Shown here in pieces: positions 9,001 to 64,000 of a stretch of 64,000 bases of DNA. The stretch's first letter is position 1; each line of letters begins with the position of its first letter. The stretch covers positions 55,800,001-55,864,000 of the forward strand of contig NC_087246.1 of assembly GCF_037042905.1 (NCBI RefSeq). Direction: 5' to 3'. Position numbers: made by a program. This DNA is from Lytechinus pictus. Its lineage: Eukaryota.

Positions 9001-12000
9001 ATGCTTGTTATGATCATGCCATCAGGATAAGAGTAGGATTCAAAAGTGTTGGATGAGGTCTGAATTGAAAAGCTGCAAAACGAGCAAAAAAAGTTTGGAA
9101 ATCTGAGTTTGGCCATTAATTTCTCCCAATTCCCAATTTTACACAATGCATAATTGATATCATTCACAAGATCATTTAATTCTTTTCAAAATGATACCAT
9201 GCTTGTTATGATCATGCCATCACAAAAAGAGCAGGATTCAAAAGTGTTGGATGAGGTCTGAATTGAAAAGCTGCAAAACGAGCAGAAATAGTCATGAAGG
9301 GTCAATACAGAACATGATTCTTTTGTCTGTGTCAAGAGATGAAAATCCATTCAAATCAAGCCCCTGCTTCTTCATTTTTTATGTTTTGTTGTGGTTTATG
9401 TAGGGATGGTTCTGTGAGATAACATTGTTTTAGTCGTGGTTTGAAATACCCATGAATGTTTGTTTGTTATGTGTTTGCTCTGCAGAGGTGTGTTTGATTC
9501 CATGTTAATGTTGATGTTAAGGTGCATGAAAACAATTAAAAGAAACCACTGAGAAACTCACTCATCACAACAGAAAAAAGAACAGTGACTTTCAATATTG
9601 TGTCATTTTGCAACTTTTGAATTTTGACCTTGCCCCACATTTCAAGGCACTGCACCTTCATGTGAACCATAATCATATCATGTAGGGTATCATTTTAAAG
9701 AGAATTAAATGATCTATTCATTTATATTATTTACACATTGATATTTACTAAAACCGAGGAGGGATGATCAATCAAAGTCAGATTTCCAAACTTTTTTTGA
9801 GGAGTTTAGTTTCCACTAAACTAGTTTTGGGAAGGTAGTGAGAACAGTGTCTTTGGGACATTGTGCGAAGTGAAAACTTTAGTCTTCAAGGATAATTTCA
9901 TTCTCTTAGTGATCTTAACAAAGATGGTGTTGACTGTATTTATTATATCCATGTGATATGTTTGTTGTATTCACAATTCAGATGTGATTTGGTATCATTG
10001 ATGGCAGCGAAGGGGAGTATCTACATGTAGGGTCTACACATACGGTGTAGTTGTACAAGTATAATTCACCCCCAGAAATGTACAAGATAGCACTCGTAGT
10101 ATTTTGGTTGCCAAATGAATTAATATGAGGGGATTCAACATTTAGTTTGGATTGAAAAGAAGGAAAGAGAATGCCTGACAGAAATAATAATTTCTTTCCC
10201 ACCAATGAAAGCTGAAAGCAGAGCACTTCAATTCCTCAATCAGAGGAAAACTTTCACTTTAAGGGTTCAGGTAACAGTAACATTCATGGAGGTGTCATAA
10301 AACTGAGCATCTATATTCCATCTATTCAATTTTGAACAAAAGAAAAGCATATACCCCTTGTCAATAATTGGACACAAGTGCATAAACCACATCTAGCAAA
10401 ATATGCCTGTAAATTGAGTGTCAGTAATTTGTCCCTTTTTGTCACTAAAAGTGACAATTTGATTCTGCAACAGACGCTTGTTAACTCAGAGTAATGCAGC
10501 TACTTCTTGAACTCTTTTGACATCAAAAGAAAAAGTTAGAATTCACCCAGACAAGACTTATTCCACTCCTTAATAACGATATGGTTCACATCATCAGTGC
10601 CAATGCTTTAGACTTGCTTCCAATTATACAACTTGACAGCGACATTTTTTTTCACCCTTTCCTTTTCTTTTTCTCTTGTTCTCAGTGGGGATGATATGTA
10701 CAGTTTTTATTATCAAAAGGAAACCTCTGCAATAGGCAGATTCCCTCAAAGTGTGTTGCAGATAATTAATTTGACAGAATCCTCTGAAAGAAACATATTG
10801 TTTCATTCCACTTCACACCATTTAAATGAAAATCAGAGTGCTATGCACTTGGTTTTGATAAAGTGAAAAGTGTTGACATTCTACATGTAACATGAGACTT
10901 CCTGAAATGTTAAAGAGTACATTACAGTTTTAATGCAGATAAGAGTTTTAGTCAAAATGGTCCTAATCAAATAAAGGAAATAAATACAAGTGGTATCTAT
11001 GTAAACCAATAAACCAATTACTTCAAACATACAGATCTAATTTTGATTAAACATCATCACGATATAACAAACCCTGGATCAGGGAAAAAATTACACGAGG
11101 ACTGAGGGCGATATAAACCCAAAAATGCTCAAACGAGCCCTGGAAACTAACAAAATAAAAGGAGCACTAGAATCCGCATTCACTGCAACGTTAAAGCTTA
11201 TCCAATGTTGCACATTTAGGCAGTAAATTGTAAAACGTAGCCTCAAAAATAAGAAAATTAATTCTTTGCCTACCCTTCATACATAATTTATCTTTCCAGG
11301 AGACGGGGGGTCATATAGATGTTTATCTGAAATGCAACAAAAGGGAACATTCTATTTTGGGCCAATGATTCAATAATTGATAGAGTATGAAAAAAAAATG
11401 AAATTTGAAAAGAAGAAAATTATGAGATAAATTACCTTTTCTGTCTTGACTGTTGCCACTTCATTGATGAAATCTTTGAATTTCTGTCTATTCAGAACTG
11501 AAAGATAATACATAAAATAAAAAATTATATGTTGTGTTGAGTTAGCTGGAATACACAATCTGCATTTCAAAATATGGTTTTGCTACCAAAGAAAGATTCA
11601 TGCGTGCATTTCTTTAACATGTTCATTCCAGTAAATATTTGAATGGATGGCAATGATGAGGATGATAATGATCAAAATAATAATGATAAATATAACAAAG
11701 ATATAAACTAAAATATTATAAATGTATCTTCCACTGTTCTTTAAATTCTGAATCTATTATTTTTTAATGTAAGAGTATTCATTTCAAGCTCACAACATAT
11801 TTATACCTGTAGGTATATCTATATATGAAAGACATATGTGAAAATAATGCAAAGATGGTAATAAGCCAGTTCGTAGTTCCACTCTGCGCATGATCAGAAG
11901 ATGCTGCGCATGATCAGAGGAAGGTTATTTGTACTAAAGTGACATGGTGGTTTAAAAATTTAATGAGATAAGCACCATCTTTGATGTCTTGATCATTCAT

Positions 12001-62200: not shown

Positions 62201-64000
62201 GGCTTCTCACGAATGTACGAAGTGAAAATTTCCATATTATAATTCCACGTGATTCCTATTGAATAACACCGTTTAAATTCCATAATTATATCAAATCTAT
62301 TTCAGATACATAGGGGGAAGATGGATGTTGACTTATTAAGATTGTCATCTCATTTCATATTAAAGCTTATTTAATTTTCAACAATAAAAAAGTATAATGT
62401 CATATCATGACATGATTATCACCATGATCAAGTAAACTTATATTCTCTTTAGCCCTTTGCGCGCTGATGTTGCAATTTTGCACATTCGAACAATTGAATT
62501 TAACAATAAAAATTGTAATAATTAAATTTCTCATCTACATATATATTTAATAGAAGCTTAAAAATGACAATAGTTCTTGGATAACATCTATATAATAATC
62601 ATAAGTATCAATGGTGCAATGTGGAAATCTTGAATTAAAGAAAATAACATGAAAACAATGGTCATTATTATACCCCAAAATTAATTCAGAATGCAAAGAG
62701 TTAATATATACATTAAAAGTGAAACATAGCAGGGTTCTGACCAGCACGATCATGACAAATTTTTTTGTAACTTAAAAAAATATATTTTTCTTTAATGATT
62801 CCCAATAAAGTCCGTAATACGTATAAAAAATAACGTATAACTTGATATATTATTTACATGCAATGAAGACAGTTGTGAAACAAAAAAGACAAGGTTTTAA
62901 ACTTACGAATTTGACAGGATGTCGCTATTCAAGCCATTACATAAACGATCAGAATAAAGAGTAACTTTATGAGATCGACAAATGTTTGCCCCAAAAGTTT
63001 TACGGATGCTACGTGTTGTTTTTATTTTCTAACCTATATTGATATCAATAATAGAATCTCGAACTATGAAGTTCGGGGAATTCTCTTGATATGGACTTAC
63101 ACGTCATACAATATGCCCCTGACGACCAACATCTAAAGGTGTATCTCAAAATATTATTGTCCTCTGGAAAAACAAACAAGTAGTTGAAACGTAACGAAAC
63201 TAAATTACTTGATTTCACGATAAGTTTAATCTTCTGTCAGAATTAGTTTATAGTTCCGAATAGACTGCTGCACCCTTTTGATGACCTTTAATTCTTTCTT
63301 TGATCGCTTCGATATGAATACACTACTGGATTATAAAATTAATCGTTTTGTTCACAGCGTTGTTTGTATCTTAGAGGAAAAATGCCGATTTAAACGAATA
63401 ACGACGTAAATCGATTTAGGATTTCCGTTTTCGATTATGTGCTTTTTAATGTAATTGAAAACCCAAGGTAAAATTCTGTTCGGCCAAATAATGTTGATTA
63501 AATAGGATAGTTTAATTTCGAACAAAATCTAAATGAGATAATTCAACGTTTAAGAAACATATTAACGGGAAAGGAAATATAGGATTTTATCTGTATTGGA
63601 ATGTTACAATGATGAACTCAAGAAATGAACAATACCGACTATTATGTTTTTTTTCTCAGTAAGATTAATCTGTGTCATGTATTCGTATTTTTTTATGTCA
63701 AGAATACTGGAGCCGGTTTAGGAATTAAGAGCGGTATACGTCTTACAAGACACTGAAAACCAAAGTTATAGGAACCTAAAATCTGTATTTACACGACCCA
63801 AGAGATCTCCCACCAATTACAATAGAAATCGAGAAAGTTGTTTACATCAATATTGCATCGCTCGATCTACTCTCAATAAAGTAAATCTTATTTAAATCAC
63901 TTTTATTTCAATGTAACTTTCCTTTACATGCTATTTGTTGGCTATGGATAGGAGACGTTTGGCATGAGGCGAAAGGATTGATAAATTCATTAGGGAAAAG

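What the first reader, a model, noticed from the sequence alone, without database searches (positions are those of the whole stretch)
11436..64000. Probable part of the ancient Irx-Sowah genomic regulatory block
Seen: a Sowah gene with small exons, a 10-kb intron 1 and an intron 2 apparently longer than 11 kb, plus ~42 kb upstream with no recognisable CDS but many unique motif-rich blocks. Established: Sowah is the bystander gene linked to Iroquois genes across bilaterians, with Irx enhancers in and around it (Maeso et al. 2012, Genome Research). Inference: an Irx gene lies nearby and this desert is its cis-regulatory landscape. No Irx homeobox exon is visible in this window.
[Added by the scan's program, not by the reader: the finding's places include an assembly gap (unread letters, written N; its length is only estimated) at 51860 to 51998. 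Whether the letters on both sides are continuous or in frame is not known: test that first.]
Basis: partly seen in the sequence, partly recalled or inferred. Interest (0 to 1): 0.65.

Follow-up and report, generated by a model that had tools for sequence, protein, structure and literature searches.

The report
Sea urchin Sowah gene start region
The window holds the first two exons, two very long introns and 42 kb of apparently gene-free upstream DNA of a sea urchin Sowah gene that is already annotated in a close relative. Whether this DNA serves a neighbouring Iroquois (Irx) gene cannot be decided from the window.

Summary
On the minus strand lie Sowah coding exon 1 (21650-21521) and exon 2 (11497-11436), separated by a 10,023-bp intron 1. 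Intron 2 is longer than 11,435 bp, because exon 3 is not in the window.

- **Identity.** Exon 1 is 98% identical to Lytechinus variegatus SOWAHB-like and 91% to Strongylocentrotus purpuratus SOWAHA.
- **Profile test.** A profile built from 140 non-urchin SOWAH N-terminal domains picks out exactly these 2 of 2,948 window ORFs (E 1.7e-11 and 7.7e-7; next best 0.41).
- **Upstream flank.** The 42,350 bp upstream show no recognised coding domain, structured RNA or tRNA. No homeobox signature was found in the window. The coding scan is weak for exon-sized pieces.
- **Assembly gap.** The gap (51860-51998, 139 N) sits in non-coding, low-complexity DNA. It touches no reading frame of interest.
- **Irx link.** This remains an inference from other phyla. 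No Irx gene is in the window, no echinoderm genome could be searched, and the key paper (Maeso 2012) was not held. One review says the linkage was broken in several lineages.
- **Base rate.** A flank of at least 42 kb is only about twice the mean urchin gene spacing.

Verdict: a known gene at a known kind of locus; the genomic regulatory block (GRB) claim is plausible (about 0.5-0.6) but untested.

The parts
21521..21650 (-). Sowah coding exon 1. It encodes residues 1-43 plus the first base of codon 44, the first half of the SOWAHA-C winged-helix domain.
   Evidence: Sequence. It is 98% identical to L. variegatus XP_041454517.1 and 91% to S. purpuratus XP_030831443.1. tblastn gave E 3e-23. It matches profile positions 2-42 at E 1.7e-11.
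11436..11497 (-). Sowah exon 2 (62 nt). It carries the last two bases of codon 44 and residues 45-64.
   Evidence: Sequence. Its 20 whole codons read LNRQKFKDFINEVATVKTEK, identical to the L. variegatus protein. tblastn gave E 1e-9. It matches profile positions 44-63 at E 7.7e-7.
11498..21520 (-). Intron 1, 10,023 bp, phase 1. CpG observed/expected (o/e) is 0.58.
   Evidence: GT...AG boundaries. CpG o/e. No Pfam match.
1..11435 (-). Part of intron 2, which is longer than 11,435 bp; exon 3 lies beyond the window start. CpG o/e is 0.53.
   Evidence: No tblastn or profile hit to residues 65 onward. CpG o/e.
21651..21800 (-). Presumed 5' UTR and core promoter of Sowah. A TATAAAT lies at 21782-21776, 126 nt upstream of the ATG. 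This is weak evidence.
   Evidence: Sequence. TATAAAT occurs 36 times in the window on both strands, so it is only a lead. CpG o/e is 0.93 in 20001-22000.
21651..64000 (.). 5' flank of Sowah, 42,350 bp, with no recognised coding or RNA feature. CpG o/e is 0.86.
   Evidence: Pfam on ORFs of at least 45 aa found none at cut-off. Rfam 0, tRNA 0. CpG.
42401..43200 (.). The strongest CpG-island-like block in the window: GC 0.47, CpG o/e 1.15, 50 CpG. It is a candidate unmethylated regulatory element or unannotated promoter, with no coding evidence.
   Evidence: Block found, sequence. The adjacent 112-aa ORF (42419-42754, minus strand) has no Pfam match. It has no usable Atlas hit, no PDB match better than E 0.37 and no homologue at E<=1.
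51860..51998 (.). Assembly gap of 139 N in non-coding, low-complexity DNA, 30 kb upstream of the Sowah ATG.
   Evidence: It was left unfilled. The six ORFs that are open only through the N run were left out of the scans.

Best explanation
**What it is.** The window is the 5' part of the Sowah (sosondowah ankyrin-repeat) gene of a camarodont sea urchin very close to Lytechinus variegatus. The gene is transcribed on the minus strand.

**Shown:**
- Two short exons encode the first 64 residues of the SOWAH-specific N-terminal winged-helix domain.
- There is a 10-kb intron 1, more than 11.4 kb of intron 2, and 42 kb of upstream DNA without recognised genes.
- CpG depletion steps at the promoter. 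The gene body has o/e 0.53 and the flank 0.86. This pattern fits a germline-methylated, transcribed gene body next to unmethylated DNA.

**Inferred only:** by analogy with fly, amphioxus and other bilaterians, Sowah is probably (about 0.5-0.6) still a bystander gene in the Irx-Sowah regulatory block here. In that case its long introns and flank would carry enhancers that loop to the promoter of a neighbouring Irx gene. That would keep the two genes linked.

**If the fly arrangement is ancestral:** in Drosophila, deficiency mapping places the 5' end of ara next to the non-3' part of sowah. On that arrangement, Irx would lie beyond position 64000. Nothing in the window itself demonstrates any link to Irx.
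For: **Gene identity**
- 8 of 9 candidates scored E<=1. The top hits are L. variegatus SOWAHB-like (98%) and S. purpuratus SOWAHA (91%), and all carry PF25877.
- only the two exons are hit.
- source names, including the UniRef name 'SOWAHA-C winged helix-turn-helix domain-containing protein'.
- 283 representatives at E<=1e-3, nearly all matching through query residues about 5-76.
- of the 10 looked up, 4 are named SOWAH (Patiria, Latimeria, Chanos, Phymastichus) and 2 bivalve proteins carry the UniRef SOWAHA-C name.
- 15 of 15 non-echinoderm homologues scanned carry C-terminal ankyrin repeats.
- the two exons hit adjacent profile positions (2-42 and 44-63), and they are the only 2 of 2,948 ORFs that do.

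**Methylation-like step**
- 21 versus 42 one-kb windows, means 0.53 versus 0.86, Mann-Whitney p 4.6e-5.

**Long introns**
- 10.0 kb and more than 11.4 kb, against an average urchin intron of 1.7-2.1 kb (table in PMC11655880).

**GRB principle**
- PMC12311624: the fly sowah introns house ara/caup enhancers.
- PMC5010895: the table lists seven amphioxus Irx-Sowah elements attributed to Maeso 2012.
- PMC5803294, PMC5585340 and PMC8767184: passages confirming the block.
- PMC13317027: echinoderm cis-regulatory elements conserved across phyla are associated with Irx, among other genes, and echinoderms keep microsynteny.
Against: - **No Irx in the window.** There were 0 homeodomain matches among 497 ORFs and no WFxNxR signature in six frames.
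- **Linkage not universal.** PMC3342872 states that the Iroquois-Sowah association was disrupted in several lineages.
- **Sea urchin case not in print where I could look.** Searches found no paper stating it. Maeso 2012 itself was not held.
- **Flank size is unremarkable.** A flank of at least 42 kb is about twice the mean spacing implied by 709.77 Mb and 18,665 genes with about 15-kb transcripts.
- **Conservation not measured.** No non-coding block could be compared with any other genome.
- **The CpG step is generic.** It fits any transcribed gene next to intergenic DNA and is not specific to a GRB.
- **The 'no gene' result is weak.** Short exons escape an ORF-based Pfam scan. The local Pfam copy also fails on full-length SOWAH proteins: 0 families for P0002, P0004, P0008, P0009, P0012 and P0014.
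Confidence: 0.5

Rival explanations
1. This is an ordinary Sowah locus. In echinoids the Irx-Sowah linkage is broken or distant. The long introns and the 42-kb flank would then be filled with repeats and neutral DNA, or with Sowah's own regulatory elements, and have nothing to do with Irx.
For: - No Irx is in the window.
- The linkage is reported as disrupted in several lineages (PMC3342872).
- The flank size is within about twice the mean gene spacing.
- The window holds dispersed and palindromic repeats and minisatellites. An example is the 409-bp repeat present in both introns (8472-8879 and 14584-14986, 88.5% identical).
Against: - Only 6,642 of 64,000 bp are repeated within the window. 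Genome-wide repeats could not be scored.
- The block is described as remarkably conserved across Bilateria (PMC8767184; PMC5585340).
- Echinoderms are described as retaining microsynteny (PMC13317027).
- Two consecutive introns are about five times the average length or more.
Confidence: 0.35
2. The 'desert' is not empty. An unannotated gene or long non-coding RNA starts at the CpG-island-like block at 42.4-43.2 kb, or short exons of another gene lie in the flank.
For: - The block 42401-43200 has GC 0.47, CpG o/e 1.15 and 50 CpG, the strongest in the window.
- A 112-aa ORF abuts it.
- ORFs of at least 100 aa are somewhat more frequent upstream than in Markov-2 simulations: 17 versus 10.0 +/- 3.2, with 2 of 100 simulations reaching 17.
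- The ORF-based Pfam scan cannot see short exons.
Against: - The 112-aa ORF has no Pfam match.
- Its Atlas recognition score is 1716, below the 2300 level, with no usable hit.
- The best PDB match is E 0.37.
- No homologue of 61-196 aa at E<=1 was found among 5.8 billion proteins, a set in which L. variegatus and S. purpuratus RefSeq proteins appear.
- No Rfam family matched.
Confidence: 0.15

Closest known systems
Lytechinus variegatus gene for 'ankyrin repeat domain-containing protein SOWAHB-like' (XP_041454516-20, isoforms X1-X6) and S. purpuratus SOWAHA (XP_030831443.1)
   Same: Exon 1 matches at 42 of 43 residues in L. variegatus and 39 of 43 in S. purpuratus. The 20 whole codons of exon 2 are identical to L. 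variegatus. The start codon and domain are the same.
   Different: There is one residue difference from the L. variegatus RefSeq protein: Q instead of P at residue 40. The window is therefore another individual, assembly or close species. Only the first 64 codons lie in the window.
Drosophila sosondowah (sowah) next to the Iroquois complex (ara, caup)
   Same: The gene family is the same, by the N-terminal domain found with phmmer. In both, large introns lie at the 5' part of the gene. In the fly these introns hold ara/caup enhancers (PMC12311624).
   Different: In the fly, the Iro-C genes are demonstrably adjacent and the enhancers are genetically mapped. Here neither adjacency nor enhancer function is shown.
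Amphioxus Irx-Sowah block with reporter-tested conserved non-coding elements (Maeso et al. 2012, as tabulated in PMC5010895)
   Same: It is an invertebrate deuterostome locus with a Sowah gene and extended non-coding DNA.
   Different: Seven amphioxus elements are listed with coordinates and attributed to reporter assays.

Membership tests
SOWAH (sosondowah ankyrin repeat domain) gene family | N-terminal SOWAHA-C winged helix-turn-helix domain (PF25877) | tested here: met
   All 8 hits to exon 1 carry precomputed PF25877.1. A profile from 140 non-urchin N-terminal domains matches exon 1 (positions 2-42, E 1.7e-11) and exon 2 (positions 44-63, E 7.7e-7). These are the only 2 of 2,948 ORFs that match. 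Circularity caveat: the 140 sequences were found with an urchin SOWAH query. The local Pfam copy lacks this model (0 families for six full-length echinoderm SOWAH proteins), so the blank says nothing.
SOWAH (sosondowah ankyrin repeat domain) gene family | C-terminal ankyrin repeats | tested here: inconclusive
   The relevant exons lie outside the window. All 15 non-echinoderm homologues scanned have Ank/Ank_2. None of the 3 echinoderm models (P0009, P0012, P0014) has it. The urchin model P0004 stops matching at its residue 447, where the homologues' Ank_2 match begins.
SOWAH (sosondowah ankyrin repeat domain) gene family | Closest named relatives are SOWAH proteins | tested here: met
   Names: L. 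variegatus SOWAHB-like, S. purpuratus SOWAHA, Patiria SOWAHC-like, Latimeria SOWAHC, Chanos SOWAHB, Phymastichus SOWAHB.
Irx-Sowah genomic regulatory block (Maeso et al. 2012) | A Sowah gene with long introns acting as bystander | tested here: met
   Intron 1 is 10,023 bp and intron 2 is longer than 11,435 bp. The average urchin intron is 1.7-2.1 kb. The 'bystander' role itself is not shown.
Irx-Sowah genomic regulatory block (Maeso et al. 2012) | An Irx (TALE homeobox) gene in cis next to Sowah | not testable with these tools
   Within the window there is none: 0 homeodomain matches in 497 ORFs and no WFxNxR in six frames. The scaffold beyond the window, and any echinoderm genome collection, was not available.
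Irx-Sowah genomic regulatory block (Maeso et al. 2012) | Conserved non-coding elements in and around Sowah | not testable with these tools
   The only genome collection open holds bacteria and archaea. One indirect try found nothing, which is uninformative: the ORF at the CpG block searched against 5.8 billion proteins, which include translated contigs of other urchins.
Irx-Sowah genomic regulatory block (Maeso et al. 2012) | Enhancer activity or chromatin contact directed at the Irx promoter | not testable with these tools
   This needs ATAC-seq, 4C/Hi-C or reporter assays.

The most novel reading that the evidence does not exclude
The echinoid Sowah locus still forms the ancestral bilaterian regulatory block. 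Irx enhancers would sit in the two introns longer than 10 kb and in the 42-kb flank, and the CpG-island-like block at 42.4-43.2 kb would be one such long-range element or a boundary or promoter element. Sea urchins would then be a tractable system for testing why this gene pair has stayed linked for so long. A side possibility is that echinoderm Sowah has lost its ankyrin-repeat part or split it off, since none of the 3 echinoderm models scanned has it.
Probability: 0.4. Interest if true: 0.4.

Novelty: already known. Interest (0 to 1): 0.22.

Why it matters
If the Irx link holds in sea urchins, it would add an experimentally convenient phylum to a textbook case of a gene pair held together by shared regulatory DNA. 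The two long introns and the CpG-rich block would then be concrete candidates for reporter tests. As it stands, the window adds nothing beyond an already annotated gene. The useful outcome is a precise exon-intron map, a clean statement of what is and is not shown, and a warning. The warning is that a 42-kb gene-free flank is near the base rate for urchin genomes.

Tried and rejected
- **Six-frame Pfam scan as long translated chunks.** I replaced it with stop-to-stop ORFs of at least 45 aa sent by reference.
- **Pfam on the two exons alone.** It gave 0 families. This is uninformative, because the local Pfam copy also gives 0 families for full-length SOWAH proteins.
- **Word-indexed search with the N-terminal 95 residues of S. 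purpuratus SOWAHA.** It found only 7 urchin proteins among 41 candidates. The exhaustive phmmer search was needed to reach other phyla.
- **ORF beside the CpG block (42419-42754, minus strand).** The Atlas, PDB and homologue searches were all blank, so I rejected it as a gene.
- **Five weak Pfam matches.** These were OTT_1508_deam, ABA_GPCR, DUF2066, BESS and CutA1, at E 0.002-0.009. All are below their curated cut-offs, so I treated them as chance.
- **Maeso et al. 2012 and Maeso et al. 2013.** Neither was held. Five literature searches found no statement on Irx-Sowah linkage in sea urchins. Supplementary tables that may list it, such as those of PMC13317027 and PMC3514665, were closed.
- **Joined exon model.** I made no spliced exon 1 + exon 2 protein. 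The exons were searched one by one, so no fold or search of the window's own joined domain was done.
- **Assembly gap.** It was neither filled nor looked up.
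Full report
**What the window is.** The 64-kb window is AT-rich, with GC 0.30-0.43 per 2 kb. It comes from a sea urchin. The only ORF with a clear protein-like start is on the minus strand at 21767-21477 and reads MADAEEEFSADGVQKFLVANGGKATNVEVVGHFAKYLNDQEFK. Searched alone against 5.8 billion proteins, these 43 residues gave 8 proteins at E<=1 among 9 candidates. The hits are L. 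variegatus SOWAHB-like isoforms (98% identity, E 1.4e-17), S. purpuratus SOWAHA (91%), four Diadema antillarum proteins (81%) and one unnamed 77-aa ORF. All carry precomputed PF25877.1. UniRef calls the S. purpuratus protein 'SOWAHA-C winged helix-turn-helix domain-containing protein'. The window is not human.

**Gene model.** Exon 1 runs from the ATG at 21650 to 21521 and ends AAAG|GTAATT, which is 130 nt and phase 1. Exon 2 runs 11497-11436, preceded by TTATCTTTCAG and followed by GTAATT. Its 20 whole codons read LNRQKFKDFINEVATVKTEK, identical to the L. variegatus protein shown. The split codon gives V, as in the reference.
- Intron 1 is 10,023 bp.
- In tblastn of the 8 proteins against the window, each of the 7 full-length ones hit exon 1 and exon 2 only. 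No other hit was better than E 0.33.
- Exon 3 (GEKLLVLKNEYFY... in the reference) is therefore not in the window, and intron 2 exceeds 11,435 bp.
- The finding's start coordinate is exactly the last base of exon 2.
- One residue differs from the L. variegatus RefSeq protein: Q rather than P at position 40.

- The local Pfam copy cannot run that test. It returns 0 families for the exons. It also returns 0 for six full-length echinoderm SOWAH proteins, so it evidently lacks PF25877.
- I therefore ran an exhaustive phmmer search with S. purpuratus SOWAHA against 1.84 billion representatives. It gave 283 hits at E<=1e-3 and 59 at E<=1e-10, nearly all through query residues about 5-76.
- Of 10 hits looked up, 4 are named SOWAH (Patiria, Latimeria, Chanos, Phymastichus) and 2 bivalve proteins carry the UniRef SOWAHA-C name. 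The other 4 were unnamed or carried only generic names.
- Of the 18 proteins scanned with Pfam, all 15 non-echinoderm homologues carry C-terminal ankyrin repeats.
- I built a profile from 140 of the 143 hits kept after setting aside the urchin and sea-star entries. I ran it without filters over all 2,948 stop-to-stop ORFs of at least 15 aa in the window.
- Only two ORFs scored. The exon 1 ORF matched profile positions 2-42 at E 1.7e-11. The exon 2 ORF matched positions 44-63 at E 7.7e-7. The next best was E 0.41.
- The two exons thus map to adjacent parts of one domain, and the refutation test is passed.
- Caveat: the profile members were themselves found with an urchin query.

**The upstream 42 kb and the introns.**
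- Of the 503 stop-to-stop ORFs of at least 45 aa, I scanned 497 against Pfam. I dropped the six that are open only through the N run.
- None reached a curated cut-off. Five weak matches (E 0.002-0.009) look like chance.
- Rfam at gathering thresholds gave 0 and tRNA search gave 0.
- No six-frame WFxNxR signature exists. That homeodomain helix-3 motif is recalled, not taken from a call.
- So no Irx homeobox, and no other recognisable coding domain, is in the window.
- This is a weak negative. Urchin exons average about 200 bp (table in PMC11655880), and an ORF-based domain scan misses short exons.
- ORFs of at least 100 aa are mildly over-represented upstream: 17 versus 10.0 +/- 3.2 in Markov-2 simulations, with 2 of 100 simulations reaching 17.

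**The assembly gap.** The 139 N at 51860-51998 lie 30 kb upstream of the ATG, in AT-rich non-coding DNA. CA/CCCA-rich low complexity lies on the left and TA/TG-rich sequence on the right. No internal repeat bridges it; there are 0 repeated bases in 48001-52000. Frame continuity is irrelevant here. Physical continuity cannot be known, and I did not look it up.

**Intrinsic features.**
- CpG o/e is 0.53 in intron 2, 0.58 in intron 1 and 0.86 across the flank.
- In 1-kb windows the gene body averages 0.53 (n=21) and the flank 0.86 (n=42), Mann-Whitney p 4.6e-5.
- From general knowledge of mosaic methylation in invertebrates, this fits a germline-methylated, transcribed gene body beside unmethylated DNA. 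It is not specific to a regulatory block.
- The strongest CpG-island-like block is 42401-43200: GC 0.47, o/e 1.15, 50 CpG.
- The 112-aa ORF beside it found nothing in Pfam, the Atlas, the PDB or the 5.8-billion protein set. I treat the block as a candidate non-coding element.
- Only 6,642 of 64,000 bp are repeated within the window. Genome-wide repeats could not be scored, so 'unique' is unproven.

**The Irx-Sowah claim.** The general statement is well supported by what I could read.
- Passages in PMC5803294, PMC5585340 and PMC8767184 confirm the block.
- The text of PMC12311624 says the large fly sowah introns house ara/caup enhancers. Its deficiency mapping puts the 5' end of ara next to the non-3' part of sowah.
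- A table in PMC5010895 lists seven amphioxus Irx-Sowah elements credited to Maeso 2012.
- A passage in PMC13317027 reports echinoderm regulatory elements conserved across phyla and associated with Irx, among other genes.

Against carrying this over directly:
- A passage in PMC3342872 says the association was disrupted in several lineages.
- Maeso 2012 itself was not held.
- Five searches found no statement about sea urchins.
- Supplements were closed, and no echinoderm genome could be searched.

On base rates, Heliocidaris crassispina has 709.77 Mb and 18,665 genes. Transcripts average about 15 kb and introns 1.7-2.1 kb (abstract and table). A flank of at least 42 kb is about twice the mean spacing. 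The two introns are about five times the mean or more, which is suggestive but not diagnostic.

**Verdict.** It is already annotated in L. variegatus and S. purpuratus. That it lies in an intact Irx-Sowah block is a reasonable phylogenetic inference (about 0.5-0.6). That this particular flank is Irx's regulatory landscape is less sure (about 0.4). Neither is shown by anything in the window. Novelty: already known. Interest: low.

Noticed in passing
outside the window; proteins P0009, P0012, P0014, P0004: All echinoderm SOWAH models seen (L. variegatus, S. purpuratus, Patiria) lack ankyrin repeats, whereas 15 of 15 non-echinoderm homologues have them. The urchin model stops matching at its residue 447, just where the homologues' Ank_2 match begins. 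Either the models are truncated before another long intron, or the gene is split or shortened in echinoderms.
   Followed up: partly
window 42401-43200: This is the strongest CpG-island-like block of the window (GC 0.47, CpG o/e 1.15, 50 CpG), 21 kb upstream of Sowah. The adjacent 112-aa ORF has no relatives.
   Followed up: yes
window 1-21000 versus 22001-64000: CpG o/e steps from a mean of 0.53 in the Sowah gene body to 0.86 upstream (p 4.6e-5). This looks like a boundary between germline-methylated and unmethylated DNA at the promoter.
   Followed up: partly
window 55251-55561: There is a tandem array of an 11-bp unit, CACAGTGTGTT, with 28.7 copies and 77% matches.
   Followed up: no
window 28200-30400: This is a repeat-rich, CpG-rich patch. 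It includes a 111-bp minisatellite with 3.2 copies at 29409-29768 that holds a GCGAGCGCGAAGCGCGAGCGG core. Related copies lie at 28262-28758. CpG o/e is 1.19 in 28001-30000.
   Followed up: no
window 8472-9292 and 14584-15030: A 409-bp dispersed repeat is present in both Sowah introns (88.5% identical). In intron 2 it lies next to a 198-bp tandem duplication at 8887-9292. It has no Pfam match.
   Followed up: partly
window 39863-40478; 4354-4500; 57261-57413; 19296-19607: These are self-complementary (palindromic) elements of 147-616 bp, 68-85% complementary, resembling foldback or MITE-type repeats.
   Followed up: no
window 21531-21533 (codon 40 of exon 1): The window has Q where the L. variegatus RefSeq protein and S. 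purpuratus have P; Diadema also has Q. The window is therefore not identical to the L. variegatus reference protein.
   Followed up: no
tool library: The local Pfam copy returns no family for full-length SOWAH proteins whose precomputed annotation is PF25877.1. Pfam blanks on this gene are therefore not evidence.
   Followed up: yes
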